Shown here: positions 41,731 to 64,000 of the stretch, piece after piece
How positions within the stretch are numbered: the first letter of the stretch is position 1
How the letters are laid out: the number at the start of each line of letters is the position of its first letter
NCBI GenBank assembly: GCA_001724265.1
Contig: MEDY01000011.1
Coordinates: forward strand, 124,001 to 188,000
Reading direction: 5' to 3'
Origin: Rhizaria sp. SCN 62-66
Lineage: Eukaryota
Length of the DNA stretch: 64,000 nucleotides
Translations under genes and position numbers: made by a program
The notes under the pieces: model-generated
Databases searched by the model: none
What the model was told of the DNA's origin: nothing
Seen by the model: the letters and a program-made list of their open reading frames with translations, nothing else

Positions 41731-44700
41731 TCATCGGGGCTGCTGGTCCTTGAGGCGCGCAATGCGGGACGCAACCCAGGGGTGCGCCACCACTTCCTCA
41801 ATAAACGCGCGCTTTGCGGGGTCAGCGCGCATCATCTTAGTCATGAGATCGATGGCCGACTCAGACGCGTTGATCGAAGGGAACTGCGCCTTGTACGCCT
41901 TGATGAGGTACCGCGGGCCGTGCTTTGCTAGGCTCGCGTAGTGAACGTTGCTGCTGGACGCAAAGCCCAGGTACGGCGGCACCTTAGTCAGCATTGTGAA
42001 AAGAATCACGCCGAGTGAGTAGACGTCAGCCAGACGGCCGTCAAAGCCGTACTTGCGCCTGTAGTGCGGCGCGCACAGCCCGAGCTTGTACGCTCCACGG
42101 CAGCACTTGGAGCACACATCGCCGCGCTCCACGCACTGCGCGCAGTCGCAAACTTGTGCTGCTGCGCGCTCTTCACGCGTCAGTGCCTCATCGCGCTTTT
42201 TGGCAGCCTGCGTGACGTGGTACTGCGCGATGATCTCGGGCGCCATGTAGTCCTTGGTACCGTAGATCCCCGCCACGGGCTCCACAGACCCGGGCCCACG
42301 GCCATCAACAATGGCGCCAGGTGGCAAGTTCAGCGGGAACCTGTCGCGGTGCAACTCCGCCGCCGTAATGTCGCCGGCGCGGTCGCGGCCGTGTGCTGAG
42401 TAGTCGCTCCACGAGCTCTCCAGCTCTGCGCTGGGAACGCGCGCCTGCAGCACGTGCATGACACCGTAGTCGCTCACGCACGCGCGCGTGCGGTCACGCG
42501 AGAGCAAGATGTTGGCGGGCTTTAAGTCCAGGTGACACACGCGCTTTACGTGGTGCATGTAGTACACCGAAAGCGCAACTTGGGCAAAGAGCATTGCGAC
42601 ATGGTCTTCCGGCAGCATTTGCAGGTTTTTCACATCGCGGTTCTCGTTCAAGAAGTGGTACACGTCGCGGCCGGCCATAAACTCGCTCACAATCCAGTGG
42701 TTCTCGGGGTCTTCAGCGGGGCCGTGGAGCTCCTCGATAATAGTCGGAGTGTAGCAGTAACCAGACAGCGCGCGGTAAAAGTGCGCCTCCTCGGCCGGCG
42801 AGTCGCCAGACTTGGGCTTGTCCACGGCGCCCTTCTCGCTCTTCTTGACAGCAACCTGCTGCTCAAAGCACAGATAACCAACGGCGATCACGCCCTCGCG
42901 CGACAAACGCCACACAGACGCGGCGCGAGGCTCCGCCAGCGCGAGCGTGCGTGGGCAGTCGTCGAGGTCGGGCACGCGCGCAGCCAGTGTGAACGTCGCG
43001 CCGCCGTCGTCAGAGTACTCGAGGACAGCGCCGGCAAGACCAGCAGAGCGCCACAGCGCGTGTGCGCCAATAGTGACATGCGTGACAGGCGCAATCTCAG
43101 ACTCGGCAAAAACGAACTCAGCAATTGCGGGCGCGCGGCGCTGCTGCTGTTGCTGCAGGAGCAACTGCTGCTGGGCGCCCATCTGCTGCATCTGCTGCAA
43201 CTGCGCGCTCTGCTGCGCGCCGCCGCCGCCGCCGCCAGTCATCAGCGCCGCCGACAGCACGGGCGACACGACGAGCCCGCGCGTGAGATCCGACGCGTCC
43301 GCGAGCCACGCCAGGCGGGCGCCGGATGTCGCGTTAACGGTAAGCCGCGTGCAGCGCAGCGCAGCGGGTGCAAGGCGGCGCGTGGCGCGGAACACGGCGC
43401 CGAGGTTGGTGCGGTGCACTTCGTCGTGCAGCGTGTAGGCGCCGCAGCGCGACCACGGCGCGCCCCCCGTTACGGGGTCGATCAGCGAGTGCGTCTCCAG
43501 AGGCGTGGGGCCCTTCGCTGCAGCCACTGCAGTCGCCGTCGCCGTAGTAAGCGAGACCATGGCAGGCGGCGCGGCGCCGGCAGACGGAGACAACATCGGC
43601 TGCTGCGGTGCAAGTGCAAACGCAGCAGCGGGGACTGCGGCGGCCTCGGTTGTGACAGCGGCGGCAGACGAAGAAGACGAGGACGAAGAGGCAACAGAGA
43701 GCATTGTCTGCTCGGTGCTTTCGCCATCATTGTGCATAGAGCGCATCTCGTCGTCTTCGTCGCACGCGCAGTCGTCGCCGACAGTCACCGCAGCCGCAGT
43801 CGTCGCGGTGCCGTCAGCGCTCGAGGCGTATTGTGACTGCGACTGCAAGTGCGTCGGCGACGGACCCGTGGCGGCCGTCACTGCGGCTGCTGAGGCAAGC
43901 GCGGTGGCCACGTTTGCAGTCTGGTGACTGAGCACTGAGCTAGCAACACCGATGTGTTGCGAGCTGCAGTTACTGCCGCTTCCGCTGCGGCCGGTGCTTG
44001 AGGCCACGCTGCCGCAGTAGGCGCCGTAAGCACTGCCCGTAAACGGGGCGTTCTGTCCGTTTTGGATCTGTGCACCTGCAACCGTTGAAGCGTCGTCGAT
44101 CATTGCCACACCTGCCACGGCACCAGCAACAACGGCGGTAGAACTGTGATCGTGGCCGTGGTCCGGCATTGAGTCCGCGCGCGCGTGGCGGCCTGAGCGC
44201 CGGCGCAGGTCGTAGCCGTACAGCGCAGGCGTCTGCGCGCCGGCAGCGCCTCCGCCGTTAGCCGCTGTGGGGACAGCGGGCTGGCGCATGCGCGTCATAA
44301 TGGGCGACGAAGGCTGCGACACGCACTGCTGCACAGCGCCGTTAACGGCAACGCCGTTGTTCTTGCTCGAGGGGGCAGTTGCAGCGGGCGCGAGATTGCG
44401 GCGGCGCAGCTGTGGGCTTGATGTAATGCCACCCGTGGAGCCGCCTTGCGCGTCGAAGTCGTAGGACTCGTATTTGCCGGCGTGGACGCCGCCGTCAAAG
44501 TCGCTCGCGCGCCGCGGGCGCTGCTGCATTTGCAACTGCTGCAGCTGCTGCTGCTGCTGTTGATGAACAAACGCGTTCTGTCGACGCAGCGGCTGGCGAC
44601 GGCGCTGCTGCATGGGCGTCTGGGCCTCGGCTTCAGCTTCATCGCCGTCGACGCCGCAGTCGGTGGTGTTATCGTAGTCAGCGTCCTCGTCGTAGTGGTT

Positions 44701-46796
44701 TACGCCGTCGCTGCGCACGGTCTCTGCAACGCCCGCATTAACACCGTCGTGAACGCCGCCGTCGTCGTCGACGCCGCACTCGCTCTCGCCCTCCTCCTCC
44801 TCCTTGACCGTCGCTGGCGCCGGAGTTGCGGTGAAGAACGTCTGCTGCTGTTGCTGCGGCTGGCCAGTCTGCTGGTGATATTGGAAGTGGCCGTGGGCGC
44901 CGACGTGCGGAGAAACCGGCGGCCTGTAAGTTTGGGTTCCGTTGGCGCCGCTGTTGTTGCCGTTTGCGGCGCTGATAGCAGAGGCCGCATTGATGTTGAC
45001 GCCGAATGAGCCGACGGGCACCGAGGCCATCATCAGCATCTGCTGTTGTTGCATACCCGAGCCGTAGTGACTATAGGGCACAAACGCCGGACCGTCACCC
45101 ATCGCGGTCGCCATGGCGCTCGCAGTGTTGGCGTTTATGTTGGCACCCCCAGCGGTGCCTCCGCTCACGCCGCTAGTGTCACTGGGAAAGAGCTGCTTGC
45201 GGTACACACCGCCCTGGGCTTGGGCTCCGTTGCCGTTGCCGCCGCTGTTGTTGCCGGAACCGGAGCCGGCGCGCAGGATAGACTGCGGCGACACGATGGA
45301 GCTCGCGGGCGACGCGACTGCAACTCCGTGCTGCTGATGGGCGTAATGACCGTGCGCCGCGGTGTTGTTAACGGCAGCGCTGCCGTTGTGGTCAAAGCCG
45401 TAGTGGCCTTGGACAACAGCGCCAGCGCTGTGACCGTGGCTGTGGCCATGCGCGGCGGTGTAGCCCAGCACGGGCGAGGGCGACGAGTAGAACCCGTGGC
45501 CTGACGCCGACACGGCGCCAGAAACACTGCCCGAGGCAGCGCCGGAGACGGACGCGGACGCGGATGCCGAGGCTGACGCAGCAGAGGCGGCAAAATGGCC
45601 AATCCCGGGGGACGGGGAGGCAGAGGTAGAGGCAGAGAAGCTGCCGGGCGCGGGTGCTGTCGTCGCCGGCGAGACGGAAACCGAGACAGAGCCGGGGCCG
45701 GGACTGTGCATAGCCTGGCCGGCTCCGTTCTTGCTGGGTGAGACCGAAGTGAGGTGAGCGGAGCTGGTGTGGAGATTTGCGGTCGCCGAAACCGTGTTAG
45801 CGTTTGCGCCCCAGAAGCTCTGCTTGGCAAAGAGGCAGTACTCGAGACGGCGCTCCAACTCGGACGCGTCGGGGCCAGAAAGCTGAACAAATGCAGAACA
45901 ATATAAACAGAGGTGAGAATTTAAATAGTTTGCTGCAATATGTAGGCATGAAATGAAAATAACTCTAAATTAAGTTATTTTAACTAGACGTGTTTGTAAG
46001 CAACAGAGAAACTTTCGATTAACTTGAAGCGCGACTTCAAGTCGACTTGAAGCGAGGAGGGGGAGAATACTGAATCGAATGAAACGCACCTGTGAGCGGT
46101 CGGGGCTTGTCAGAAGAGACTGGCAGTAGCGAATAGAAGCGTCAAGCCACTCGGCAACCATGGCCCACGACACGGTCGCGGGGGAAGTCTTGCGCAGCAC
46201 AGCGATGTGGCTCCGGATTCTGTCGGACACGTGCAGTCCAGGAAGGGCAAGCGTAAAATTCAAGTAGTTTTTGTGAGTTAAAGCTGAAGTTAAGTCAAAA
46301 TTTAAAGCTAAAAACAGGTATTTCATTCTTAAAAAACGTACTCGAGATAGAGCTCCTGCGCAGTGGGTGTGGTGTGGCTCTGCGCAATATGTGTTTGCGC
46401 GGCGGCCGAGGTCTGAGTCTGGCCCTGAGTCTGCAGCTGCACCGCTGCAGCGCCGTCGTACGCTCCGCGCGGAAACCTGCGGACGCGTTGCATCTCACGC
46501 GGAGAGTCGTCCGTCATGGCTGATGCGTCTTGAAGCGCGTCACTTCCGGCGGTTCCCGCGACGTTGGTCGACGGGTGGTGAGGGGACGGTGAGAGTTGTT
46601 GCTGCTGTTGCTGATGCATCTGCTGAAGGTAGAGATGCGGCGAAGGCACAGATGTCTGCGCGGCGGGCTTACTCTGCGCGGGCGGGGTGCCACTTGTAGA
46701 AGCAGGCTGCGCGGGCATAAAGGTGTCGTGAGAGTGCTGCAGGATGGCGCGGCCAGCGGAGCTGAAGGCCGAGCGGCCGTGGAGGTTCGCAGACAT
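41731..46796 (-). CDS. CAMK-like Ser/Thr protein kinase with long disordered N-terminus, ~1,578 aa; exons 46796-46342, 46219-46090, 45882-41731
   Basis: Introns 46341-46220 (GTACGT..CAG) and 46089-45883 (GTGCGT..CAG) join three ORFs in phase. Kinase motifs: VAVKK, HLDLKPANILL, DYG, GTKDYMAPE, ADVYSLGVILF, DPAKR..HPW. Stop TGA. Confidence 0.85.
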
Positions 46797-49894: not shown

Positions 49895-50219
49895 CGAAAA
49901 CGCTTGGACCGAAAAATCTATCTCGGGCAACCTTCGGCCAACCATCGCAGTCCGGTTTCACATTTGTGTGGGTCGTAAATTCGTCATTTCTTAAAATAAT
50001 CTCACAGACCTGACATCTCACTCAATTTTTTATATGAAAATTGCAAAATCATTTGACTAACCAAGCGAGATTGCCTCCATATCCCTTTGACAGTTTCCTC
50101 TCGTCTCCAGCACCACCGCCCCTTGCTGCTTCGACTTTGCCCCCTTCTTCGCGCCCCCGCGTTCACTTCTCGGGCTTTTTAGCGCTTATTGCCCTGCGCC
50201 TTAACGCTTTTTGTCCGCG

Positions 50220-53204
50220 ATGTCTGACCGCTCGTACAATACGCCCTCGTCGCCGGGCTCCAGCACCGGCCCGCGCACCCCGGCCAACAACGCAAACGCC
50301 GCTGACGCCCCCGCCGCCGGTGCTGCCGGCCGCGCACGCTCGCTCCACTACACCCCGCACTCGTCCCAGACGGATTTCAGCGAGCCCAACTCTTCCTCTG
50401 CGCCGCGCACGCCCTCCGTCGGCTCCTTGGGCCCCCAGAGCGCCGCCCACAGCCATGGCTCGCAGTCGCCCTACACCAGCGCCGGCGCCGGCTCCTCCGC
50501 CGGCGGCAGCGCCGGCCATGAGCGCCCCATCGGCCTGCGCCGCCGCGAGCTCGGCATTGGCGCCTACTACGCGTCTCCACGCTCCTTCCGCAGCACGCCC
50601 AGCGCGGCCAACGCCAGCGCCAGCAGCGCGCGCGGGCCCGTCACCCCCGGCTCCGCCCGCGGCAGGAACAACAACGCCAACAACAACAACAATAGCAGCG
50701 ACGCGTCGTCCTCGGCGCGTGACCGCGGCAGCAGCGGCAGCGACGGCCACGGCGGCGGCGGCGGCGGCAGCAGCGGCGGCCGCGGCGGCGACGACGACAA
50801 CGAGGAGGAGCCTCCGTCCTCGCAGGGCCCCGGCAGCACGGGCGGCGCGGCGTCCTCCGCGGCGCACCAGCAGCGCATGGCGTCGGACGAGAAGACCTGG
50901 GGCGCGCCCTTCGCGCTGGCCGAGTGTTACGCGCGCTGCCACGCCTTCCTCGTTGGTTACATCGACGAGGCCTCGGCCGCGGGCACCGAGTCCTCGCTGG
51001 CGTCCGCCGCCGCCGCCGCCGTGCCGGGCCAGGCGTGCCCGGCGCTGTACGTCAAGGTGCTGGACGAAGGCGAGGACTGGGACCTCAAGTTTGTCAACTT
51101 TGACTCGGCGCACCTGCACCAGTTCGACCCCGTGTTGTACCAGTGGCTCGTCCACTACCCGCACTACGTCGTCGAGATGCTCGATCTCGCTATCAACGAA
51201 ATCCGCGACGCGCGCCACCCCGCGGCCGCCGCGGTCGGGCGCGCGCGCGTCAACATGCGTCCTTACGGGCTGATCACACCGACCGCGATGCGCCAGATTG
51301 ACCCCTCGGCCATCGACACGCTCGTCAGCATCAAGGGCATGGTCGTGCGCACTGGCTCCGTGCTGCCCGAGCTCTCCATCGCGTGCTTCAAGTGCTGCGC
51401 GTGCAACGCCGAGACGCAGAGCAACGTGGAGCACGGCGAAGTCAAGGAGCCCGCGCGCTGCGTCGTGTGCCAGCGCGCACGCTCGATGCAGCTCATGCAC
51501 AACCTCAACACCTTCACCGACAAGCAGCTCATCAAGATCCAGGAGACGCCCGACGAAGTCCCCGACGGCGAAACGCCCCACACCTTCACCGTATTCGCGT
51601 ACGAGGACCTGGTTGACGCCGTCAAGCCCGGCGACCGCATCGAGATCACGGGCGTGTACCGCGCGCAGCCCGTGCGCGTGAACCCCAAGCGCCGCGCTCA
51701 GCGCTCCGTGTTACGTGCCTACCTCGACACGGTCCACTTTAAGAAGCTCGCCGCGCACGGCGCCGCGCCCGGCGTCACGGCCGAGTCGGCCGAGCAGGCC
51801 GCAGCGATGGCGCTCGCGCTGTCCAACAGCAACGGCGACAGCGCGGGCGCGGGCGCGGGCGGCGGCGGCGCGGGCCGCGGCGGCGACGGCGGGCAGACTC
51901 TCCAGGCCGTGCGCGAGCGCCTGGAGGCCGAGGTGCGCGCGCTGGCTACGGACCGCAACGTCTACAATCGGCTCGTCAAGTCGCTCGCGCCGTCCATCTA
52001 CCGCATGGACGATGTCAAGAAGGGTCTGCTGTGCCTGCTCTTCGGCGGCTCCAACGCCGGCGTCGGCGCCGGACAAGGCCGGTTCCGCGGCGAGCTCAAC
52101 GTGCTCATGTGCGGCGACCCCGGCACGTCAAAGTCGCAGCTGCTGCAGTACGTACACAAGCTCGCGCCGCGCGGCATCTACACCTCTGGCAAGGGCTCCT
52201 CCGCGGTCGGTCTGACTGCGTACATCGCGCGCGACCCGGCGTCGCGTGAGCTGGTGCTCGAGTCGGGTGCGCTCGTGCTCTCGGATCGCGGCGTGTGCTG
52301 CATCGACGAGTTCGACAAGATGAACGAGTCGACGCGCTCCACGCTTCACGAAGTCATGGAGCAGCAGACGGTCTCGATCGCCAAGGCGGGCATCGTATGC
52401 ACGCTTAACGCGCGCACGTCGATCCTCGCCTCGGCGAACCCGAAGCAGAGTCGGTACAACCCGCGTCTATCTGTCGTCGAGAACATCGAGCTGGGCCCGA
52501 CGCTGCTGTCGCGCTTTGACCTCATCTACCTCATCCTTGACCAGCCCAACGCGGCCTCGGACCTGCACCTGGCGCGCCACCTCATCGGGATGTACTACGC
52601 GGACCGCGACGCGCCCGCCCGCGCCGCCGATGTGATCCCCACGCAGACGCTCGCGCATTACATCTCGTACGCGCGTCGCCACGTGCACCCGGAGCTGGAC
52701 AACGACGCCGCGACGGCGCTGGTCGACGCCTACGTGGAGCTGCGCGAAAAGGGCAACACGGGGAACCGGCGCATCGTGACGGCGACGCCCCGCCAGCTCG
52801 AGTCGCTGATCCGGCTCTCCGAGGCGCTGGCGCGCATGCGTCTGTCGCCCGTGGTGACGCGCTGGGAGGTCGACGAGGCGAAGCGGCTAATGCAGGTCGC
52901 CACGCAGGCCACGGCGACCGACGCCGCGACGGGCCGCATCGACATGTCTATCCTCACCACCGGCGTGTCTTCCAGCGACCGTGAGACGGCCCAGGCGCGC
53001 ATCGCAGAGGTCATCGAGCACTGCCGCACGCACCTCATGGCCACGCAGGCGCGCAAGATGACCATCGCACGCTTTCGCGCGCTGTGCATGGAGGCCGTGG
53101 GGCTCTCGTCCGCCGTCGCCAACCTGCTCGTGGAGCAGATCACGTTCGAGCGCGTCGCCGTCAAGGAAGGACAGATGCTCAACTTCAGCAACCTCCAGTT
53201 TTAA
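50220..53204 (+). CDS. MCM4: DNA replication licensing factor MCM4, 994 aa, intronless
   Basis: S/T-P-rich N-terminus, zinc finger (FKCCAC..CVVC), QETPDEVPDGETPH, Walker A GDPGTSKSQLL, YTSGKGSSAVGLTAY, LESGALVLSD, IDEFDKM, arginine finger LLSRFDL, TPRQLESLIRLSEA. Stop TAA. Confidence 0.95.
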   Translation: MSDRSYNTPSSPGSSTGPRTPANNANAADAPAAGAAGRARSLHYTPHSSQTDFSEPNSSSAPRTPSVGSLGPQSAAHSHGSQSPYTSAGAGSSAGGSAGHERPIGLRRRELGIGAYYASPRSFRSTPSAANASASSARGPVTPGSARGRNNNANNNNNSSDASSSARDRGSSGSDGHGGGGGGSSGGRGGDDDNEEEPPSSQGPGSTGGAASSAAHQQRMASDEKTWGAPFALAECYARCHAFLVGYIDEASAAGTESSLASAAAAAVPGQACPALYVKVLDEGEDWDLKFVNFDSAHLHQFDPVLYQWLVHYPHYVVEMLDLAINEIRDARHPAAAAVGRARVNMRPYGLITPTAMRQIDPSAIDTLVSIKGMVVRTGSVLPELSIACFKCCACNAETQSNVEHGEVKEPARCVVCQRARSMQLMHNLNTFTDKQLIKIQETPDEVPDGETPHTFTVFAYEDLVDAVKPGDRIEITGVYRAQPVRVNPKRRAQRSVLRAYLDTVHFKKLAAHGAAPGVTAESAEQAAAMALALSNSNGDSAGAGAGGGGAGRGGDGGQTLQAVRERLEAEVRALATDRNVYNRLVKSLAPSIYRMDDVKKGLLCLLFGGSNAGVGAGQGRFRGELNVLMCGDPGTSKSQLLQYVHKLAPRGIYTSGKGSSAVGLTAYIARDPASRELVLESGALVLSDRGVCCIDEFDKMNESTRSTLHEVMEQQTVSIAKAGIVCTLNARTSILASANPKQSRYNPRLSVVENIELGPTLLSRFDLIYLILDQPNAASDLHLARHLIGMYYADRDAPARAADVIPTQTLAHYISYARRHVHPELDNDAATALVDAYVELREKGNTGNRRIVTATPRQLESLIRLSEALARMRLSPVVTRWEVDEAKRLMQVATQATATDAATGRIDMSILTTGVSSSDRETAQARIAEVIEHCRTHLMATQARKMTIARFRALCMEAVGLSSAVANLLVEQITFERVAVKEGQMLNFSNLQF

Positions 53205-53711
53205 GCGAGCGAGGGTTCATTTGTGTTTGTGTGCTTCAAAGTGTTATTGTTTGTGTATTTCGCTCTGCTTGGTTATGTTTGTTTTGCTTGTTAGGTTTGT
53301 TGTCCCATTTCTATTTCGAACGCTTTTCCTCATATGGGTGGCGTCGGATCTTTCTGATACAGATTTATCTATAATTTGAGTATCTATCCCTCACTACTCT
53401 GAAAATTTACGTTGATATATTGAAACTTCAAGTCACGTGATATGAAAACGTTCGTGAGTCGTGCTGCCACGTTTGCAGACTACTCGATCAGGCACCGTCT
53501 TGGTCTTGGAGAGAGAGAGCAAGGAAACGACTGAGAAAGAAACCCCTCAGATATCTACGAGATGACCGTAGAGCTGAGTGTGGGTTAGTGTATGATGAAA
53601 TTTATATGAATTTAATACTTTCCTAAAATAGTTGCTCTGAAAAACGTTTTCTTACTGCTTTACTGTCATCCCCTCACATTCCCGCCTGCCCTACTTTACA
53701 GACCGCGACTG

Positions 53712-55229
53712 ATGGACTCCGCTGCCGCTGTTGCCGCCGGTGGTGCTCGCACGCGCGAGCCCAAGAACTCCGTGCATGTGGACAACAACTGGAAGCAGCG
53801 CATTGAGGCTGAGGAGCAGACTGAGACCCACTGGAAGAGTACGTCCTTCGTCCCAACCATCAGAGAAGAGTTTGAGAGTTGCTTTGACATGCTCGCTGTG
53901 ATCGTGAATGGTTGCTCTCTGCATTAAACATGTGTTGTGTTGTTATCATGTGTCTTTATTTGCTTTTTATAGTCCTATCACCTCGTGTGACTACATCAAG
54001 ACGCTCCTCTCGAGCTTCTCACCACTGCTGACACTTATCGCTTCATCATCGCTTCATCTCCATTCTTACTCTGACAATCTGCCCGTCGATCTATTCTTCT
54101 TTGTTCCTCCTCTCGTTTGCCCTGTGCAGAGAACTGGGGCTATCTTGACTCCAAGGCCAACAGCGACGATCCTGCGACCCAGACTACGCGCGCTCTCAAG
54201 GTACGCCGCAGAACCGAAACAACAGCTGTTTCACTTGCTTGCTACAAAGCAACAACGATGACAACTGCACCAGCACACTTTCATTGATCTATCACTCCAA
54301 TATTTTGCTGTTTTGCTCTTAGTGACATTACTGTTTATTTTGTTTGTTTCTCACGCTCTTTCTTCTCTGTTCTCTGTCCGTTCTTCTCTGCATTTTGCTG
54401 CTCGCCACACTCCCTACTCGCCTCCGCGCTCTCCACTCTTGACTCCCGTACAGCACTACTCGCACGCCCAGCTGGCCGAGGAGGCCGCACGCCTGGCCCC
54501 GACCTACGCCTTTGCCTCAACGACCAAGGCGGACCGCTACGACGCCCGCTCCATCGACATGCCCAAGTCCCACGCCGCCACCGCGGCCGCCTCGGGGACC
54601 AGCCGCGGCGCGATGTGGTACGACGACAACGAGGGACACCGCTCGTACGTACTCAAAACTCCACGCAATCAACCTATTCAACGCTGCTGACATATCAGCG
54701 ATGATGTAGAAACCTGACATTTTTCAGCAGGACAAATGTCGAAATACGTCTTGTTACAACTGTTTTCTTCGCTCGTATTTGCATTTGCGCTCTTGTGCTT
54801 ACATTTATTTCTTCCCCCCAACTTCTCTTGCTTTCTTATTTGTATTGCAGCCACATCCGCCTGAACCAGCTCCACAACCCCAACAGCGCCGCTGCGACCT
54901 CCGCGTCGGCATCGGCGTCTGCGCAGGTGCAGCCGCTGTCGAGCACGCGCCAGTGGGACCGCTACTGGGCCTCCGACTCGGCCGCCGTGACGGCAAGCCC
55001 GCACTCTGCCGTGCGCGTGGGCGCGCTCGACACCGCACTGGCGACTTCGATGCAGCCGCGCATCCTGCAGGCCGTGGGCGCGAACCTCGTCACGCCTGGG
55101 GTGGACCCGCAGCGCAAGTACAGCTACCCTCTCACGGCCAGCCAGGAGGTCGGCTGGGCGTGGGGCGGCCGCCGCTCGCTCGAGCTCTTTGGCGTCAGCG
55201 GGCACGGCAAGAAGAACATGAAGTGGTGA
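53712..55229 (+). CDS. Ciliary microtubule-inner-protein-like (C20orf85/CIMIP1- and FAM183-like motifs), 255 aa; exons 53712-53838, 54130-54200, 54454-54644, 54851-55229
   Basis: Three phase-compatible GT-AG introns give NSVHVDNNWKQRIEAEEQTETHWKKNWGYL (cf. C20orf85 W-K-x-R..E..W-x-x-NWGFL) and C-terminal PQRKYSYPLTASQEVGW. Stop TGA. Confidence 0.65.
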
Positions 55230-56953: not shown

Positions 56954-57191
56954 TCACTTCCTTGGAATCCTGTTCGCGGCCGCCGCGCTTGCCCTCGCCT
57001 TGGCCGCAGCAGCAGCCTGAGCCTGGGCCTGAGCTTTTGCTCGCGCCTGCGCCTCCGCCTGCGCCTGGGCCTCGGCCTGAGCGCGCGCCTTGGCCAGCAC
57101 GGCCGCCGGTGGCAGTCCCGTGATGGTCGACGCGCTCGCTGGCACAGCCGCAGCCGCCACAGCGCCAGCGGGCCCTTGCTGCAGCCGTTGT

Positions 57192-57229
<38 letters not shown>

Positions 57230-58529
57230 TTGCTCGGTAGCGCGGCGTTGCGCGGCGAGCAGCGCGGCAGCGCGCGCCGAGGCGGCTTGAATTTGCTCGG
57301 CCTCCTTGCGCGCCCGCAGCACGGGGTCCTCGAAGGCGCGCGGCGGCGGCGGCGTGACGCCGGCGGGCAACACGCCCGGGGTGCGCTGGCGCTTGGCGGC
57401 CGCCTTGACGTCGGCGAGACCCTTGCGGTAGAGCTGCATCTTGACGCTGCGGAGTATTATAACATCATATTATAACAGTGTTGCATCAGTCGAGTCGCGA
57501 TAAAAGACGCGTAACAGAAAGTACGAAGAAGTGGCATCAAGGATGAGAGAACGTTATCAAAAGTTTACATCACGACATTTCACAAAATTTAGCTTGAACG
57601 ATCATTATAACATCTCAAATGAATGTAACATGTTTTAAAAAAACAGCGATAGTATCAATAAAAACATCTACGTTTTGCACAAAGCAATTCTCAGACGTAC
57701 CTGTACAGCGGGTCATCGGTCCGCGGCCGCACCCACCCAGGGATCACGTCTGCCGGCTTCACGCCCTGCTCCTTGCTCAGCAGAATGCGCTCGTGCATCT
57801 CCAGCTTCCGCGCGCCCGCGGGTCCGCCGCCCCCGTCGCGCTGCGAGCCCGCTTTGCTATCTTTGTTGTTATTGCTCAAGTGCAGCGACGCGAAGTGCCC
57901 GTGCTCGCCGCCCGGCGCGCCGCACGCCTCGGTCGGCGGAACATAGAGCCGCGCCGCGTAGGCGTCCTGTCGCCGCAGCGCCGCGTCCACCTCCGCCGCC
58001 GAGGGGCCCGCGGCCGCGCGCGCGCGGGCGCTGGCGTGGAAGGCCTCCTCTGCGGCCGCGGCGGCAGCAGCGGCGGCGGCGGCCTTAGATGCGGCGGCCG
58101 CGGCGGCCGCGGCGGCCGCGGCGGCGGCCGCGGCGGCGGCCTCGGCGTTCTTGCGCGCACTGATGAGGTCGTCCGCGGAGGGGGCCGCGCTGTGGACGGG
58201 CGGAGCGGCGGACTTAGCACCAGCCGCCGCAGATATCGCAGTTGGCGGAACAGGCTTTGCTTTGGCTGCTGCAGTTACAGTCGTGGTTGCAGACGCCGCA
58301 TTCTTGGGCTTGGAGATAAGCTCGTCAATTGTGCAGTCACCATCATTGTCAGCACTACCGCCAGTCTTACTCTTGCTTACACTCTTACTTGCGCGAGCCT
58401 TTGCAGCAGTGGCAGCATCGGCGGCCTTTTGTTGTTCTTTGACGGCATTGTGCGATTTCATACGTTGCGCGTGCGTCATAAATCCGCCCTGAGGGGGCGC
58501 AGAGTCAGCCGCGCTGCTCCTCACACTAC

Positions 58530-58573
<44 letters not shown>

Positions 58574-61140
58574 TTTTTGTTGCCAACATGCGCGAGAGAC
58601 GGCGGGAGCCCGCTCGTAAGCAGACTCATACCGCGGCTGAGGTCGCCGGGGGCAGCGGCCTTGGCCTTGTCCGCGGAGTAAAACACGGGGGGCGACGCTG
58701 TTTGCGAGGCTGCGCTAGCCACGGACGACACGGATGCGCTGTTGCCACTCGAGGAGAGCGTGACTCCAGCGTCAGAACGCGCAGCATCAGAGACTCTGCT
58801 GTAGCTGTCACTGGAGCTTGAGTCAGAGTTCGAGCTGGAGCTGGAGTCAGAATCAGAATCAGAGCTAGAGCTAGAGCTAGAGCTGGAATCGGAGCTCGAG
58901 CTAGAGTCAAAAAGCTCTGCGGAAACCTTCTCAGCCTTCACCCTAGCCAGCGTCTTGGCCGCCAGCAACACTTCCTTAGCCTGAGCCTTGGCAGTCTTCT
59001 TGACCACCGCCGCGGTCGCTGTGGCAGTCTCAGTCGCAATACGCGCACCTGCGTCAGCGTCAGCGTCAGTGCCAGTGGGCTGCGCACGGTCAACCTGCTG
59101 CTGTTGTTGCTCTTCAGAGTTGCTGCACTGCTCGCGCGCCCTCTTGCCTCGAACTGAACTCGTTCTTGCAGCAACGATTGCAGTCGTCGTCGAAGCAGTG
59201 GCAGCATCAGCAGTATCTGGCAACCCACTCGCACCCGCACCCGCATCAGCACAACTCTCAATCGTCGCAAGCTCGCTGCCTTCACTTCTCTGGCCCGAAG
59301 TCGCGTTCTTCGCGCCCACGGTCAAGCTCACGCTCGCAGTTGCGTCGGCGCTTTTGTTAGCGGGAGCCGAAAACGGCGACGCAGCGTGCAGCTTCGCGCC
59401 CGCAATAAACCCCGCGGTGGTGACGGGCCGCGCCGCCAGCACGCCGGTGCTGAAGAGCCGCGCCACGGCGGCCGGCATCGCCGCGGGCCGCACGATCGCG
59501 GTCGCCACTGATGCCGCGGCCGCGCTGTCGAAGGCTGCGCCAGCGTCCGCGCCCGCGTCAGACTTGGACGCCGCTGCAGTTGAGGTCGTCGCTGCAGTGG
59601 CGGTGGTCGCTGAGGGCGAGGGATCTGGAGGTGCGGCTTGAGAGCCTGAGCCAGAGCCTGAGCCAGCGGCAGGTTGAGGGGCAGCGTTCGTGCCGGTAAT
59701 GTCAGTGCTGTTGTTGATTGAGTCAGTTGTCGACAGCGTCGGCAAGGGTAGCTCCGGCAACAAGGAATCATCAGCATGCTGCTACTGCTCTTGCTGCTGT
59801 TGCTGCCGCTGCTGTCGTAGCAGCTCTTCTTGCTGCTGTTGGTCTTGATACTGCACCTGCCGCTGCTGTTGTTGCCACTTGCGCGCCGCTGCCTGCCAGT
59901 CGCGGCCCCCCGCGCCGTACGGCCCGTGGGCAGCGGGGTGACTGTGAGCAGCGGAGTGACCTTGAGCTGCAGAGCGGCCGTTCCCGTAGAACCCCGATGA
60001 AAGCACAGCAGAATTGTAACCGTGATAAGTAGTGCTGTCGGAGCGTTGGCTGCCCGTGTAAGGGCCCGTGTAAGTGCTCGTGTAAGTGCTATTGTACCCA
60101 GTGTTACTGCCGTTGCCCTCGTAGCTCGAGCTCTGCGGAGCATTGTGCTAGGGAGCGTTGTGAGGAGAATAACTGTGGCCGTGACGGTGGCCGTGACCGT
60201 GGTTGTACGAAGATCCGTGGAGTTCGTGGTGTCCGATGTTATCGCGGTGTCCGTCGTTACCGCGGCTGCCGCGGCTGTCGTGGTCGTACCCGTGGCCGCC
60301 GCTGTAGTAGCCGCGGGCAACATCGGCGTGGGCGTGGGCGTGAGCGTGATTATGACCGCCGCGACCGTCGTCGTAGTGGCTGTGGACAGTGCCGTAGCCG
60401 TGTAGTCGCCGATTGTGATCGTGATCATGAGTGGGGACATGAGAGGATGCATATTGACGTTGTTGTTGCTGTTCGCCGTAATAGCCACGAGCATGCCCAG
60501 GCGCGTCATACTGATGAGAAGGAGGGCGCCCATGGCTGCCATAGTGAGAAGCTGGGGGGCGTCGATCATCGATTGCGTAGTGACCGACAGGCTGCGATGG
60601 CGGGGGCCGCACTGCAGCTCCATAGTGAGCTGACGAGGGTCCCGTCTCACTCTAAGAGTTAGCGGGCGGGGTTGGCTCTGCGTCCTTGTAGGGAGCATAA
60701 GAATCCTGTTCATAGCCGTCATACTGGCCCGGTGGAGCCTGTTGCGCACTGGCATAGTGAGCGGACGCTTCGTTTCCATAGTGAACAGACGGAGGGTTAC
60801 CGTCGTACTAGTCGCTGTAGCCGCCGCGATACTGGCCGCGCTCACGGTCACGGTCGTCGCCGTAATAGCCATCCCCACCCATGCTGGCAGCGTTTCCCTG
60901 GTACGAGTTATGATAGCCATACACGTGTCCGTGGCTGCGACCGTAATCATGCTAAGCGCGGCCGTAGTCCTGGCCATGGCTGGGGGCTGGGCCAGGCGCG
61001 CGGTGATATGAGTCACTATAACCAGGATCCTGCGCGCCAGTCGCGTGCGGCGGGATAGCAGGTCCGTGTTGAGGCGCTGGACCGGCCGCGGGAGCTGGCC
61101 CGCCCCACTACGTCTGCGGTGGTGATGGGCCGCGGTTCAT
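56954..61140 (-). CDS. Uncharacterised low-complexity protein, 1,310 codons if six in-frame TAG are read as sense; exons 61140-57701 and 57446-56954
   Basis: ATG 61140 lies next to an AT-rich promoter. Track ORFs 60148..60612, 59782..60006 and 57691..59763 are one frame broken only by TAG. Intron 57700-57447 (GTACGT..CAG) joins ORF 56954..57439 in phase. Composition: Tyr/Gly/His-rich N-terminus, polyQ, polyS, polyA. Stop TGA. Confidence 0.7.
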
Positions 61141-61586
61141 CTTGCGACTGTGCGGCACAAACACGAAGTTGAAGAGTAATAAATAAATTCACATAAAATT
61201 AATGTAAGATATTTTTTCAAAATGATGCCAAATTCTGATTTGACGAAGCATAGCTGACGCATGAGATGCAAATTAAAACCGGTATTGAGGCGGGCCCCGG
61301 TTCGCGAAAAATCTCCAAACCAATTTCGAGGGAGGCTGGAAGCGGGTGATTTGGTCCCAACCCGCGTTGGAAGAGGGTGTGTGTGACCGTCAGGTTATTC
61401 TCTGAGTGGATTTCGGATACGTCTGTAGTCCGAATTAGGTGATTTTCATTAAGAGAGCGGTTGCATCAGCCTTTCTCTTGTTGAACCTCTACCTCCTTTG
61501 AGGCAGTGCTCCTCTGTCTTTCGGAGCCCCCTTCTTCCGCCCTCGCGTCCGCAGCCCCCTGAAGGCTCACAGACTCGTGGTCGCGC

Positions 61587-64000
61587 ATGAAGTCGCTCCC
61601 TGTCGCGCCCTGCGCTGCCGCGCGCGCCCCGCGCCCCGCAGACGCGTCGGCCGCCACCCCGAGCGCCTCGTGTGTCGCGTCAGCGCTCGTGAGCGCCGCT
61701 GCACAGCAGCAGCCGTTGCCGAGCCGGCACCGCTCCCCGCGCGCGCTCGCCGCGCTCTTTCTGGCCGCACTCCTTGCCTGCTGCTGCCACGCTGCCATTG
61801 CCGCCACTTCGGGTACGTTCCACTTGCTCTCGCGCTCTCTCTATCGCTCTGAGAGAGAGTCTGCTCTTCGGTCCCTCTCTCCTTCTCTCTTTATGTCTCG
61901 CTCCAACCCTCGCTTGTCTCGACTTCTTACCTCTTCTTTGCTTGTGTCCTCATCTCATTTCTCTATTTTATTTGTGTTTTGTTTTTTTTTGCGCCTCGAC
62001 TGTGTTATATTCACAGCGCCGACGGTGACGGCCATCTCTGAGCTCCGCCGCCTTCGCCTGGGCACCCTCTCCCCCACCGCCCTGCGCTCCCGCGCGCGCT
62101 CCAACACTTACGGCTCCCGCCGCGGCCCCCGCGCGGGCGAGGACGAGGACGACGCCGAGTGCGCCGACGCTGCCGAGACCGCCCGCGCCGTCGCCGCGGC
62201 CGCCGCGAACGAGCCTGCGTGGCGCTCGACCCCGATGTACACCACCGACTCACCTACCTACACGGCCGAGGCCGGCGCGGCCGCCGCGGCCGCGAGCGGC
62301 AAGGACACGGGCAAGGGGTTTGCCAGCGCGCTGCAGTGGTCGACGGTTGACTCGCTGCACGTGACGCTGAAGTTTGCGCACGCCGACGTCCGCCTCGGTG
62401 CCATCTCTAACGCTGTCACCAACAGTACTGGCTCTGGCTCTAGCTCGAGTGCGAGTGCTGTGATTCTGCCGCCGCCGTCGCTGGCGGGCGCGCTCACCCT
62501 CCTGTGCCCGCGCGACGCTCTGCCTCCTCACTATGACAGCTACGGCAACAGCAGTGACGATAGCCGTGGTACCGATGACGATAATAAGGAGGACGGTGAG
62601 GGTTTGGTGCGTGTGGCGAGCCTGCAGGACGGATTCGACTCGCGCTACAGCCCGTACCCGCACCTGCCGCGCCGCGGTGGCCGCCACGGTGGCCGCCACG
62701 GCGGCCGCCACGGTGGCCGCAGCCATCGTCGTGACAATGGTCACAATCACGATAACGCCGTCCACGGTGGCCGTCACGGTTACGGCCAGTCTGACGCCAA
62801 TGTTGACATCAAAGACAGCGGCAGCGACGACAAGTCCCCGCTGCGCGCGCGCATGTTTGTGGCGGGCGCGCGCGGCGACCGGCTACGCGGCGTCAGCGCG
62901 GGCGCGTTCGCGCTGTTCCCGCGCAAAAATCAGGCCGCCACGGGTTCCAGCATCACTCACCGCGACGACGATGACGATGAGGACGACGAGGATGAGGACG
63001 AGGACGATAATGATGAGCAGCAGCAGCAGCAGCAGGTGGCTGATGACGACGGCGACAGCAGCACCATGTCTCTCACGATCACCGTGCCCGTCCGCATCAC
63101 TCGTCTGCGCCCGCGCGTCCCCTCTGCAAGTGACCGTGAGCGCGGCTCGCCGCCCGAGATGGAGACCGAGACGGTGGTGCTGCTGCGCGAGGAGTGGCTG
63201 CCCCACTGCCGCATCGCCTACGCCCCTCTCGCCACGCAGTCTAGCGGCGGCGCTAATGATGGCGATGCTGTTCACGAGGCTCCTGAGGTTGATGGCCATG
63301 TCAGCAGCCCCACCGGCGCGCCCCAGCTCCGCTCCGCTGCCCACGGTCACCCCGCTGCCCACGGTCACTCTGACCGCAGTGGCCCCTGGTTCGGCGTCGG
63401 TGGCCGTCTCGTGCTGCTCGACGCCCCCAGTGTCAGTGTCAGTGCGACTGCGCAGTCGGTGGCGCCTTTCTCGCTCCCCATCCAGCCCCGCGCCTCCACA
63501 CCCCTGCTCACAGTCACCTCGGCCTCTAACAGCACCGCCGCCAACTCTGCTGGCAGGAGTGGTTCCTCAGCGACCGTGGCCGCGCGCGACGATGCGGCCG
63601 TGACCGTAAGCGAGCTGCCCGTGGTGGAGCGCGCCGTAGTGCGCTTGCGCCCCCACCGCTGCGCCCGCGCCCGCGCCTTCGCGCGCACGCTCAACCTCCT
63701 CACCGGCAACGGCAACGGCAATGGCAACGGGGATAGTGAGGGCGAGTCCGGGCTGTTTGAGGGTAGCGCGAGTACGGGCGGTGTGGTGATCGGCGCGGGC
63801 GCCCCGCTCAAGGGCCAGGCGCACTCGCCGGACACGGTGGCGCTGCTCGAGGCCGAGGTCAAGGTCGGCGGGATCGTGGGCAAGATGATCGACCCCGTCA
63901 CGGGCGGTATCACCAAGCCCATCATGGACCTGGGCAACGCGCTCATGATGGACTCGTTCACAGACCACTTCAACAAGAAGATGCAGAACTCGATCGCGAG
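61587..64000 (+). CDS. Uncharacterised secreted or membrane-anchored protein (3' end outside window); exons 61587-61812 and 62017->64000
   Basis: Missed by the ORF track. ATG 61587, hydrophobic segment ALAALFLAALLACCCHAAIAA, intron 61813-62016 (GTACGT..CAG), then an open frame to the edge with GGRH repeats, an acidic tract, polyQ and a helical-looking end (ALLEAEVKVGGIVGKMIDPVTGGITKPIMDLG). Confidence 0.75.
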   Translation, partial: MKSLPVAPCAAARAPRPADASAATPSASCVASALVSAAAQQQPLPSRHRSPRALAALFLAALLACCCHAAIAATSGTFHLLSRSLYRSERESALRSLSPSLFMSRSNPRLSRLLTSSLLVSSSHFSILFVFCFFLRLDCVIFTAPTVTAISELRRLRLGTLSPTALRSRARSNTYGSRRGPRAGEDEDDAECADAAETARAVAAAAANEPAWRSTPMYTTDSPTYTAEAGAAAAAASGKDTGKGFASALQWSTVDSLHVTLKFAHADVRLGAISNAVTNSTGSGSSSSASAVILPPPSLAGALTLLCPRDALPPHYDSYGNSSDDSRGTDDDNKEDGEGLVRVASLQDGFDSRYSPYPHLPRRGGRHGGRHGGRHGGRSHRRDNGHNHDNAVHGGRHGYGQSDANVDIKDSGSDDKSPLRARMFVAGARGDRLRGVSAGAFALFPRKNQAATGSSITHRDDDDDEDDEDEDEDDNDEQQQQQQVADDDGDSSTMSLTITVPVRITRLRPRVPSASDRERGSPPEMETETVVLLREEWLPHCRIAYAPLATQSSGGANDGDAVHEAPEVDGHVSSPTGAPQLRSAAHGHPAAHGHSDRSGPWFGVGGRLVLLDAPSVSVSATAQSVAPFSLPIQPRASTPLLTVTSASNSTAANSAGRSGSSATVAARDDAAVTVSELPVVERAVVRLRPHRCARARAFARTLNLLTGNGNGNGNGDSEGESGLFEGSASTGGVVIGAGAPLKGQAHSPDTVALLEAEVKVGGIVGKMIDPVTGGITKPIMDLGNALMMDSFTDHFNKKMQNSIA

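What the first reader, a model, noticed from the sequence alone, without database searches (positions are those of the whole stretch)
59782..61140. Six in-frame TAG codons, several in clear glutamine contexts: candidate UAG=Gln nuclear genetic code
Seen: reading the minus strand from ATG 61140, the first 460 codons contain TAG at 61110-61108, 60954-60952, 60810-60808, 60654-60652, 60150-60148 and 59784-59782, and no TAA or TGA. The frame then continues as the 690-aa ORF and splices to the last exon. Several contexts favour Gln: a polyQ run (CAG CAA GAG CAG TAG CAG CAT), a direct peptide repeat HNAP*-HNAPQ, D*YDG versus GQYDG/HQYDA elsewhere, and GQDYGRA*HDYGRS. The other two (PPQT*WGG, ANS*SET) are uninformative. 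By hand count the stretch has about 26 CAG and 15 CAA, yet no TAA. Established: codes where UAG alone is sense while UAA stays stop are rare in nuclear genomes (UAG=Gln in the fornicate Iotanema, UAG=Leu in a sainouroid rhizarian, some phyllopharyngean ciliates). Inference: this organism decodes UAG as Gln, fully or partly.
Basis: partly seen in the sequence, partly recalled or inferred. Interest (0 to 1): 0.92.

Follow-up and report, generated by a model that had tools for sequence, protein, structure and literature searches.

The report
Six in-frame TAGs in one gene
An uncultured wastewater protist has one otherwise intact gene whose first third is broken only by six TAG stop codons, which hints that it can read TAG as an amino acid, but TAG is absent from all its other genes here, so the case stays open.

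Summary
On the minus strand from ATG 61140 there are six in-frame TAGs, at codons 11, 63, 111, 163, 331 and 453. There is no TAA, TGA or frameshift up to the splice donor at 57701/57700. Independent metagenome contigs carry all six TAGs. PolyA-RNA contigs carry two of them, unspliced and unedited.

This frame is the constrained one. The TAG-only pattern is not a by-product of any other frame (P about 0.002). Neutral decay gives it in only 2-3% of simulations.

A freely used UAG=Gln code is contradicted. About 15,500 other codons in the window, including 412 CAG and a 9,189-codon ORF, hold no TAG (Fisher 5e-10). The same gene has none after codon 453. None of 9 gene ends is TAG (5 TAA, 4 TGA), which is weak evidence.

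There is no tRNA in the window, no whole genome is held, and the protein is an orphan, so no comparative test was possible.

My best reading (0.45) is that this probable cercozoan can decode UAG as sense, at a cost or ambiguously, so UAG survives only in a dispensable N-terminal low-complexity extension. The main rival (0.25) is a dead N-terminal extension. A MAG-wide codon tally, a tRNA(CUA) search and the eRF1 sequence would decide.

The parts
61138..61140 (-). Candidate start ATG of the gene. It lies directly downstream of an AT-rich divergent promoter region shared with the + strand ORF 61563-63998.
   Evidence: The upstream in-frame stop is at 61188 under TAG=Q.
59782..61140 (-). The 5' part of exon 1: 453 codons of Tyr/His/Gly/Asp/Gln-rich low-complexity sequence carrying all six in-frame TAGs. 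There is no TAA, TGA or frameshift.
   Evidence: TAY triplets are in phase 0 in 40 of 44 cases, across all bins.
61108..61110 (-). TAG 1 (codon 11), context PPQT*WGG
   Evidence: X3 and X4 contigs are identical here.
60952..60954 (-). TAG 2 (codon 63), context YGRA*HDYG
   Evidence: X3 and X4 contigs are identical here.
60808..60810 (-). TAG 3 (codon 111), context YSD*YDG
   Evidence: X3 and X4 contigs are identical here.
60652..60654 (-). TAG 4 (codon 163), context ANS*SET
   Evidence: Covered by an X3 DNA contig and by the X7 polyA-RNA contig 60442-60668, both with 0 differences.
60148..60150 (-). TAG 5 (codon 331), context HNAP*HNAPQ
   Evidence: X3 and X4 contigs are identical here.
59782..59784 (-). 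TAG 6 (codon 453), inside a polyQ run, QQQQQEQ*QH
   Evidence: Covered by X3 and X5 contigs and by the X7 polyA-RNA contig 59665-59828, all with 0 differences.
57701..59781 (-). The 3' part of exon 1: Ala/Ser/Thr-rich, with a clear frame-0 coding signal and 0 TAG. The first in-frame ATG after the last TAG is at 59478.
   Evidence: Codon-usage score is 0.20-0.33 in frame 0 and negative in the other frames.
57447..57700 (-). Intron of 254 nt, AT-rich, GTACGT...CAG
   Evidence: Read from the sequence. The donor has the same style as the intron of the neighbouring small gene at about 56.1-56.3 kb.
56954..57446 (-). Last exon (164 codons, with a polyQ run), ending in TGA at 56956-56954
59328..61136 (-). 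The +1 frame, open for 602 codons under the standard code. It is a by-product of the frame-0 codon make-up, not a rival gene.
   Evidence: Shuffling frame-0 codons predicts 1.9 stops in this frame and 1 is observed (P 0.40).

Best explanation
The stretch is the N-terminal low-complexity extension of a real, transcribed, orphan protein gene of an uncultured eukaryote, probably a cercozoan rhizarian from wastewater reactors. Its reading frame is still protected against TAA, TGA and frameshifts but not against TAG. The most likely reason is that this organism has a UAG-decoding agent, most simply a tRNA with anticodon CUA, with Gln the best guess for the residue. Ribosomes would then pass UAG as a sense codon. 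That decoding appears costly or ambiguous, not a completed, freely used reassignment. UAG would then have been purged from ordinary ORFs and from gene ends. It would survive only where loss of some full-length product is nearly neutral. Here that would be an N-terminal extension that may be dispensable, because a shorter product could start at ATG 59478. What is shown: the TAGs are real; frame 0 is the constrained frame; TAG is the only interruption; TAG is absent from the other genes and from all gene ends in the window. What is inferred: translation through UAG, the identity of the residue, the tRNA, and the cost model.
For: 1. Six of six TAGs are confirmed in contigs of an independent study (X3), and more in X4 and X5.
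2. Frame 0 is intact. 40 of 44 TAY triplets are in phase 0, across all bins, so there is no frameshift in 1,359 nt. TAA+TGA are 0 in frame 0 against 17 in frame 2.
3. The pattern is not a by-product of another frame. Shuffling frame-1 codons predicts 3.4 TAA, 6.5 TAG and 2.0 TGA in frame 0, against 0, 6 and 0 observed; P(TAA+TGA=0) is 0.002. TAG therefore sits at its unselected expectation while TAA and TGA are missing. The other partition gives P 0.001, and the plus-strand frames have negative coding scores.
4. Neutral decay is unlikely. In simulations, P(no TAA/TGA by the time six TAGs exist) is 0.017-0.033 over 9 parameter sets. It needs a mean of 247-461 substitutions in 1,359 nt, yet no frameshift is seen.
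5. There is no CpG-deamination signature. CpG observed/expected is 1.07, and T-ending codons are not enriched before G.
6. Gene ends are 5 TAA, 4 TGA and 0 TAG in 9 gene models. P is 0.075-0.23 if TAG normally ends 15-25% of genes.
7. PolyA-metatranscriptome contigs are colinear with the DNA over 59435-59828 and 60442-60668, so TAG 4 and TAG 6 are present unspliced and unedited.
8. The frame-0 coding signal runs straight on from the last TAG for 101 codons before the next ATG.
9. The MCM4 tree places the organism with Paulinella, next to other Rhizaria. A UAG-only reassignment is already known in that group (Panek 2017, PMC5304391, passages read).
Against: The TAGs are extremely clumped. There are 6 in 453 codons here and 0 in about 15,512 other codons (Fisher 5e-10). 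Against CAG the contrast is 6 TAG with 25 CAG here and 0 TAG with 412 CAG elsewhere (7e-8). Against the 9,189-codon ORF alone, which has similar GC3, it is 4e-6.

Within the same mRNA there are 0 TAG and 28 CAG after codon 453. My arithmetic gives P 0.016 that all six fall among the first 31 of 59 CAG-type sites. That is exactly what a dead N-terminal extension predicts.

In the known UAG-sense lineages, in-frame UAG is spread over conserved genes: 384 in 71 genes in the rhizarian exLh and 204 in 126 genes in Iotanema. No conserved gene here has one.

No tRNA(CUA), eRF1, peptide or ribosome evidence is available. There are no homologues of the protein with which to test conservation across the TAG sites. 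The RNA evidence covers only 2 of 6 sites, at depth 2.4-4, in assembled contigs of an RNA library that could hold some DNA. The codon-usage score of the 5' part is weak, 0.04 in frame 0 against 0.11 in frame 1.
Confidence: 0.45

Rival explanations
1. This is a dead N-terminal extension under the standard code. A nonsense mutation cut off a dispensable low-complexity N-terminus. The working protein now starts at ATG 59478 or from a downstream transcription start. The upstream 1.4-1.7 kb is decaying, and the TAG-only, frameshift-free state is a coincidence.
For: All six TAGs lie upstream of the first later in-frame ATG at 59478, and there are none in the 859 codons after codon 453. No other gene in the window has a TAG. 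The region has the lowest GC3 of the regions tabulated (0.62). It also has the highest TAT and CAA shares: 19 TAT against 23 TAC, and 15 CAA against 25 CAG. This fits relaxed selection. Three of six contexts look like former CAG.
Against: Simulated neutral decay gives no TAA or TGA by the sixth TAG in only 1.7-3.3% of runs. It needs about 250-460 substitutions, which should bring frameshifting indels, and none is seen. There is no deamination signature that would make TAG specifically. 0 of 9 gene ends are TAG. The region is still present in polyA-RNA contigs.
Confidence: 0.25
2. The frame or gene model is wrong. Either the real product is read in the +1 frame (open 61136-59328), perhaps after the 10-codon frame-0 ORF acts as an upstream ORF, or cryptic GC-rich introns remove the TAGs.
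For: Frame +1 has no stop for 602 codons under the standard code. Its codon-usage score in the 5' part is as good as frame 0's (0.11 against 0.04). A GTAGTG at TAG 1 and AG sites after TAG 6 could in principle bound one long intron (my reading).
Against: Frame +1 being open is expected from the frame-0 codon make-up (1.9 stops expected, 1 seen; P 0.40). Frame 0 lacking TAA and TGA is not expected from frame +1 (P 0.002). Frame +1 runs 150 codons into sequence that clearly codes in frame 0, where its own score is -0.25 to -0.55. The introns identified by eye in this window are AT-rich, about 230-254 nt long, and begin GTACGT, and the 5' part holds no AT-rich island. RNA contigs cross TAG 4, TAG 6 and the only in-frame acceptor I could find (about 59706) without a joint.
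Confidence: 0.07
3. This is gene-specific recoding or editing without a change of the organism's code. Examples would be A-to-I editing of UAG to UGG (Trp) in some life stage, or a dedicated insertion system acting on this mRNA only, in the way multi-UGA selenoprotein P genes work.
For: It explains both TAG specificity and the clumping in one gene. Trp or Tyr would suit a Tyr/His/Gly-rich sequence. Restorative editing of premature UAG is known in filamentous fungi; this is recalled and not taken from a call.
Against: Two of two TAGs covered by polyA-RNA contigs are unedited. No shared downstream RNA structure exists: the z-scores of the six 110-nt folds are 0.21, -2.58, 0.55, -1.16, 0.29 and -0.54. 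No Rfam family is found in the window. The organism is not a fungus by the MCM4 tree. This reading does not explain 0 of 9 TAG terminators.
Confidence: 0.08
4. This is ordinary leaky termination in a standard-code organism. Near-cognate tRNA-Gln or tRNA-Tyr occasionally reads UAG, helped by Gln-rich context, giving a trickle of full-length protein.
For: TAG 6 sits in a Q*Q context within a polyQ run. In yeast, Q*Q context and Q-rich mRNAs raise readthrough, with Gln inserted (Leslie et al. 2026 preprint, PMC13192750, abstract and passages).
Against: That work reports 2-8% full-length product per premature stop. Six stops in series would leave at most about 3e-7 by my arithmetic, too little to keep TAA, TGA and frameshifts out. 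Only 1 of 6 TAGs has a Q*Q context. In that study UGA was the leakiest stop, yet TGA is absent here.
Confidence: 0.05
5. This is a completed, freely used UAG=Gln nuclear code like that of Iotanema, the 'fully' version of the reader's inference.
For: The six TAGs, three of them in Gln-like contexts, and 0 of 9 TAG terminators.
Against: There are 0 TAG against 412 CAG and 93 CAA in about 15,500 other codons, including a 9,189-codon ORF with similar codon bias. Scaling the local ratio of 6 per 31 to that ORF's 193 CAG predicts about 37 TAGs (my arithmetic; Fisher 4e-6). Iotanema has 204 in-frame UAG in 126 genes.
Confidence: 0.03

Closest known systems
UAG=Gln nuclear code of the fornicate Iotanema spirale (Panek et al. 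2017, PMC5304391; passages read)
   Same: Only UAG is read as sense, while UAA and UGA stay as terminators (UAA 104, UGA 15, UAG 0 there; 5, 4 and 0 here). Gln is the likely residue. A tRNA-Gln(CUA) derived from tRNA-Gln(CUG) is the predicted agent.
   Different: In Iotanema, in-frame UAG is spread over conserved genes (204 in 126 genes) and aligns with conserved Gln. Here all six lie in one low-complexity N-terminus, and 0 lie in about 15,500 other codons. No eRF1 or tRNA data exist for this organism.
UAG=Leu code of the sainouroid rhizarian exLh (same paper)
   Same: It belongs to the same supergroup, and probably the same phylum, as this organism by the MCM4 tree. The reassignment is UAG-only, with UAA (56) and UGA (15) as the only terminators.
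   Different: There are 384 in-frame UAG in 71 genes, at conserved Leu positions. Leu does not fit the composition here (5 Leu codons in 453), and conserved genes here hold no UAG.
Ambiguous stop/sense codes (Condylostoma, karyorelict ciliates; bioRxiv 10.1101/2022.04.12.488043, title and abstract start seen in the listing)
   Same: A codon can be both stop and sense. This would allow UAG decoding without a clean reassignment.
   Different: From recall, not from a call: in those organisms in-frame stops are abundant in most genes and all three stops are affected. Here one gene and one codon are affected.
Multi-UGA selenoprotein P genes (recalled, no call)
   Same: Many copies of a single stop codon sit in one ORF while other genes have none. 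This is the only well-known pattern with this degree of clumping.
   Different: That recoding needs a SECIS element and Sec machinery, and it uses UGA. No shared RNA element is found here, the codon is UAG, and the sites lie in low-complexity sequence.
Gln-context near-cognate readthrough in yeast (Leslie et al. 2026 preprint, PMC13192750)
   Same: A UAG in a Q-rich mRNA is read as Gln by tRNA-Gln. TAG 6 has the Q*Q context.
   Different: The yield is 2-8% per stop, so six in series is negligible. Five of the six TAGs lack the context.

Membership tests
Nuclear UAG-to-sense code variants (Iotanema / exLh type) | In-frame UAG in many genes, aligned with one conserved amino acid in conserved proteins | tested here: not met
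   There are 0 TAG in MCM4, the kinase, the DEAD-box helicase, the BCKD-kinase domain gene, the Myb gene, the 9,189-codon ORF and ORF 61563-63998, about 15,500 codons in all. TAGs occur only in one orphan low-complexity region.
Nuclear UAG-to-sense code variants (Iotanema / exLh type) | UAG is never a genuine terminator; UAA and UGA are | tested here: met
   0 of 9 gene ends are TAG (5 TAA, 4 TGA). The evidence is weak: P is 0.075-0.23 under a 15-25% TAG share. Several gene ends were modelled by eye.
Nuclear UAG-to-sense code variants (Iotanema / exLh type) | A tRNA with anticodon CUA | not testable with these tools
   There is no tRNA in the 64 kb (ARAGORN, Rfam) and no genome is held.
Nuclear UAG-to-sense code variants (Iotanema / exLh type) | eRF1 N-domain changes that weaken UAG recognition | not testable with these tools
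   eRF1 is not in the window and no genome is held.
Nuclear UAG-to-sense code variants (Iotanema / exLh type) | The in-frame UAGs are present in mature mRNA | tested here: inconclusive
   2 of 6 TAGs are covered by polyA-metatranscriptome contigs with 0 differences and no joint. The other 4 are not covered by listed pieces. Depth is low and DNA carry-over is not excluded.
Decaying pseudogene or dead coding sequence | A mixture of stop types and frameshifting indels, with loss of frame | tested here: not met
   Only TAG occurs (6, against 0 TAA and 0 TGA), and phase is kept in 40 of 44 TAY triplets across all bins. Simulation gives P 0.017-0.033 for the stop types alone.
Decaying pseudogene or dead coding sequence | Stops confined to the part that is no longer needed | tested here: met
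   All six TAGs lie upstream of the next in-frame ATG at 59478, and there are 0 in the following 859 codons.
Programmed stop-codon readthrough or recoding elements | A shared stimulatory context or RNA structure 3' of the stop | tested here: not met
   The base after TAG is T, C, T, A, C, C. Fold z-scores are 0.21, -2.58, 0.55, -1.16, 0.29 and -0.54, so only 1 of 6 stands out. There is no Rfam hit.

The most novel reading that the evidence does not exclude
This is a free-living wastewater cercozoan caught at an early or ambiguous stage of stop-codon reassignment. A UAG-decoding tRNA already exists, and UAG has vanished as a terminator and from constrained ORFs. It is re-entering the proteome first through a dispensable, fast-evolving low-complexity N-terminus. 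That would be a living example of the intermediate state that models of code change postulate. It might also be a candidate host type for the TAG=Gln giant viruses noted elsewhere in this scan; those are unchecked AI notes.
Probability: 0.33. Interest if true: 0.85.

Novelty: new variant of a known kind. Interest (0 to 1): 0.6.

Why it matters
UAG-only reassignments in nuclear genomes are very rare, and all documented ones are finished: UAG is spread through the proteome. How a stop codon first becomes readable without wrecking termination is argued from theory (codon capture against an ambiguous intermediate). An organism in which UAG is tolerated in one weakly constrained ORF, is absent from all others and is unused as a terminator would make that question testable. 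The material already exists: repeated wastewater metagenomes and polyA metatranscriptomes. If instead the region is a dead N-terminus, the finding is ordinary. It would then serve as a caution that TAG-only interrupted frames can arise in low-complexity, Gln/Tyr-rich sequence.

Tried and rejected
- **Assembly or sequencing error:** rejected. 6 of 6 TAGs are identical in contigs of another study.
- **By-product of another frame or strand:** rejected by codon shuffles. TAG-only frames of 270-414 codons do occur in this window, but only antisense to the giant ORF. The in-register plus frame here has 6 stops and a negative score.
- **Methylation or deamination making TAG specifically:** not supported. 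CpG observed/expected is 1.07, there is no T3|G excess, and CAA and TTG are not raised.
- **Shared recoding RNA element:** none.
- **Homologues of the protein:** none. The word-index search of the 1,149-aa read-through found nothing. phmmer against 1.84 billion representatives gave 0 hits at E<=0.001, not even to itself, probably because of the composition filter. Pfam found nothing. The Atlas gave no usable hit.
- **Synteny route to an orthologue:** the MCM4-anchored scan of JGI metagenomes gave 80 loci, the best being L001 at 63%. None holds a relative of the target or its neighbours. The GTDB scan gave only archaeal and bacterial MAG contigs at 30-46% identity, with no close relative.
- **In-frame stops in MCM4 of the fetched loci:** they are either introns or ciliate-type TAA/TAG codes in unrelated organisms. 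L001 genes show no TAG ends, but that is only 4 ORFs.
- **Whole genome:** none is held.
- **Earlier notes of the scan:** none on this genome or on look-alike sequence.
- **Parts of the stretch without cover in X7, X5 or X4:** no conclusion was drawn.
- **Literature:** searches for a code change in activated-sludge eukaryotes found nothing relevant (listing only). Supplementary tables of Panek 2017 were not seen.
Full report
**The observation**

Reading the minus strand from ATG 61140 gives six in-frame TAGs, at codons 11, 63, 111, 163, 331 and 453. Their coordinates are 61110-61108, 60954-60952, 60810-60808, 60654-60652, 60150-60148 and 59784-59782. There is no TAA or TGA for 1,149 codons. The first 453 codons hold 25 CAG, 15 CAA, 23 TAC, 19 TAT and 3 TGG.

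The frame continues through an Ala/Ser/Thr-rich part to a donor AG|GTACGT at 57701/57700. It rejoins in frame at 57446 after a 254-nt AT-rich intron and ends with TGA at 56956-56954. With UAG read as sense the product would be 1,310 aa.

HNAP*HNAPQ, D*YDG beside GQYDG and HQYDA, and the polyQ context favour a former or present Gln. In GQDYGRA*HDYGRS the repeat register puts '*' opposite Gly, so I count 3 of 6 informative contexts.

**Are the TAGs real?**

No whole genome is held. The stretch is found in reactor, wastewater and activated-sludge metagenomes of several studies from 2015 to 2025. I laid four runs from three other studies.

- X3 contigs cover all 6 TAGs with 0 differences.
- X4 covers 4 of 6.
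- X5 covers 1 of 6.
- Only two differences were listed in the 4,501 bases laid (59047 in X5 and 60393 in X4), and neither is at a TAG.
- Contigs of a polyA metatranscriptome (X7) match 59435-59684, 59665-59828 and 60442-60668 with 0 differences and no joint. TAG 6 and TAG 4 are therefore present, unspliced and unedited, in what is on record as RNA.
- That RNA depth is only 2.4-4, and DNA carry-over cannot be excluded.

**Which frame is the constrained one?**

The +1 frame is also open, for 602 codons, and codon-usage scores do not separate the two frames in the 5' part. Codon shuffles do separate them.

- With the frame-0 codons shuffled, frame +1 is expected to hold 1.9 stops and holds 1 (P 0.40).
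- With the frame-+1 codons shuffled, frame 0 is expected to hold 3.4 TAA, 6.5 TAG and 2.0 TGA. It holds 0, 6 and 0, and P(TAA+TGA=0) is 0.002.
- The remaining partition gives P 0.001, and all plus-strand frames score negative.
- TAY triplets are in phase 0 in 40 of 44 cases, across all bins, so there is no frameshift anywhere in the 1,359 nt.

Frame 0 also runs straight on into the clearly coding 3' part (score 0.20-0.33 against negative values for the other frames). It starts with an ATG next to the AT-rich divergent promoter. Its His/Gly/Tyr motifs resemble low-complexity parts of the kinase and of ORF 61563-63998.

So frame 0 is, or very recently was, a protected coding frame. TAG occurs in it at about its unselected expectation, while TAA and TGA are missing.

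**Is it simple decay?**

I replaced the six TAGs by CAG in a working copy and let it mutate neutrally. I used 9 parameter sets, with kappa of 2-8 and GC-to-AT bias of 1-4, and 300 runs each. By the time six TAGs existed, no TAA or TGA was present in only 1.7-3.3% of runs. The mean was 5.6-6.6 other stops, and a mean of 247-461 substitutions had accumulated. That much change should bring frameshifting indels, and none is seen.

A mutational process specific for CAG-to-TAG was not supported. CpG observed/expected is 1.07 against 1.11-1.33 in the other coding regions. T-ending codons are not enriched before G. CAA and TTG are not raised.

**Is UAG a normal codon of this organism?**

No. The other coding sequences have 0 TAG in about 15,512 codons, against 412 CAG and 93 CAA. 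They are:

- the 9,189-codon single-exon ORF 2211-29780, with Sushi, ephrin-receptor-like and TRP hits;
- the Myb gene, the kinase and MCM4;
- ORF 61563-63998;
- the BCKD-kinase domain gene;
- this gene's own 3' part.

The DEAD-box helicase exons also hold no in-frame TAG.

The ORF borders do not move when TAG is read as Gln. Fisher tests give 5e-10 per codon and 7e-8 against CAG. Against the giant ORF alone, which has GC3 of 0.67 against 0.62 here, the value is 4e-6.

Inside the gene, the 859 codons after codon 453 have 28 CAG, 21 CAA and 0 TAG. By my arithmetic, the chance that all six TAGs fall among the first 31 of 59 CAG-type sites is 0.016. In the documented UAG-sense lineages, in-frame UAG is frequent in conserved genes: 384 in 71 genes in exLh and 204 in 126 genes in Iotanema (Panek 2017, passages). 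A finished, freely used UAG=Gln code is therefore contradicted by this window.

**Terminators**

Nine gene models end inside the window.

- TAA ends the giant ORF, the Myb gene, the gene ending at 47814, MCM4, and a small two-exon gene at about 55.9-56.4 kb. I take that small gene for HSBP1 by eye, not from a call.
- TGA ends the DEAD-box helicase, the kinase, a small multi-exon gene ending at 55229, and the target gene.
- TAG ends none.

This points the right way for a code change but is weak: P is 0.075-0.23 for a TAG share of 15-25%. There is no tRNA and no Rfam family in the window.

**Who is it?**

The MCM4 of the window is 100% identical to a protein from ENA assemblies. It is 75% and 69% identical to two unnamed environmental proteins, and only about 50-55% identical to the named ones listed (one at 40%).

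I built a quick maximum-likelihood tree of 37 of the 120 listed hits, taking most of the named ones plus a set of unnamed ones, mostly from the top of the list. The other 83 were left out and the careful search did not finish. The tree puts the window's MCM4 in a clade (SH-aLRT 98) with a Paulinella chromatophora transcript. An unnamed environmental protein (P0020) branches just outside it, and the next group out is Plasmodiophora plus the foraminifer Rosalina (the accessions were identified). This is a single-gene placement and suggests a cercozoan rhizarian.

**Other mechanisms**

- **Near-cognate readthrough.** In Q-rich yeast mRNAs it gives 2-8% full-length product per stop (Leslie 2026 preprint, passages). 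Six stops in series would leave almost nothing, and only TAG 6 has the Q*Q context.
- **Recoding RNA element.** The six 110-nt stretches after the TAGs share no structure. Their z-scores are 0.21, -2.58, 0.55, -1.16, 0.29 and -0.54.
- **Editing to UGG.** It is not seen at the two covered sites.

**No comparative test was possible**

The protein is an orphan. No hit came from the word-index search, from phmmer against 1.84 billion representatives, from Pfam or from the Atlas. MCM4-anchored loci from metagenomes and from GTDB held no syntenic relative.

**Weighing the readings**

Two readings survive.

1. The organism can decode UAG, but at a cost. UAG is then purged from ordinary ORFs and from gene ends, and persists only in an N-terminal extension whose loss is nearly neutral. 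This explains the TAG-only pattern, the intact frame, the missing TAG terminators and, given a short isoform from ATG 59478, the clumping. It needs an unseen tRNA, and a state never documented before.
2. The N-terminus is dead and decaying under the standard code. This explains the clumping perfectly. It needs a 2-3% coincidence in stop types and a second coincidence of no frameshift after heavy divergence.

I put reading 1 at 0.45 and reading 2 at 0.25. The remainder goes to gene-model errors, gene-specific recoding or editing, leaky termination and the full reassignment.

Two unchecked notes from this scan describe soil giant viruses that read TAG as Gln and have unknown hosts. They are a lead, not support.

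**Verdict**

The finding deserves a genome-wide follow-up, which these tools could not provide.

Noticed in passing
window 2211-29780 (+): A single uninterrupted ORF of 9,189 codons ending in TAA. Its second half has Sushi repeats, an ephrin-receptor-like repeat and a TRP-channel-like stretch. Its first 4,600 aa have no Pfam family. It looks like a giant surface or adhesion-type protein encoded without introns.
   Followed up: partly
window 50205-53204 (+) and proteins P0002, P0005, P0006: The MCM4 gene places the organism in an environmental clade that includes a Paulinella transcript, with Plasmodiophora and Rosalina as the nearest named outgroup. The closest relatives, at 69-75% identity, are unnamed metagenome proteins. 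This appears to be an unsequenced cercozoan-like lineage recurring in wastewater reactors from 2015 to 2025.
   Followed up: partly
window minus-strand frames antisense to the giant ORF, e.g. 21077-22111, 23099-24103, 27470-28714: These frames of 334-414 codons have 7-8 TAGs and no TAA or TGA. TAG-only interrupted frames therefore arise here as antisense by-products of coding sequence, which is a trap for code-change calls from one strand alone.
   Followed up: yes
window 41731-45969 (-), 61563-63998 (+), 59782-61140 (-): Three unrelated genes share His/Gly/Tyr-rich low-complexity motifs such as AAHGHS, AAHGHP and AAHSHPAAHG. This looks like a proteome-wide habit of this organism.
   Followed up: no
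loci L064, L065, L067, L073, L075: The MCM4 homologues in these metagenome contigs hold many in-frame TAA and TAG codons opposite residues of the query. This looks like ciliate-type codes in unrelated organisms.
   Followed up: no
loci L031, L032, L033: Three TAGs fall in alignment gaps of an MCM4 homologue from gut metagenome contigs. They are most simply three short introns.
   Followed up: no
window 53600-55229 (+): A small multi-exon gene ending in TGA at 55229, with a C-terminal ...TASQEVGWAWGG...GHGKKNMKW. No family was assigned. By eye and from recall it resembles small ciliary proteins.
   Followed up: no
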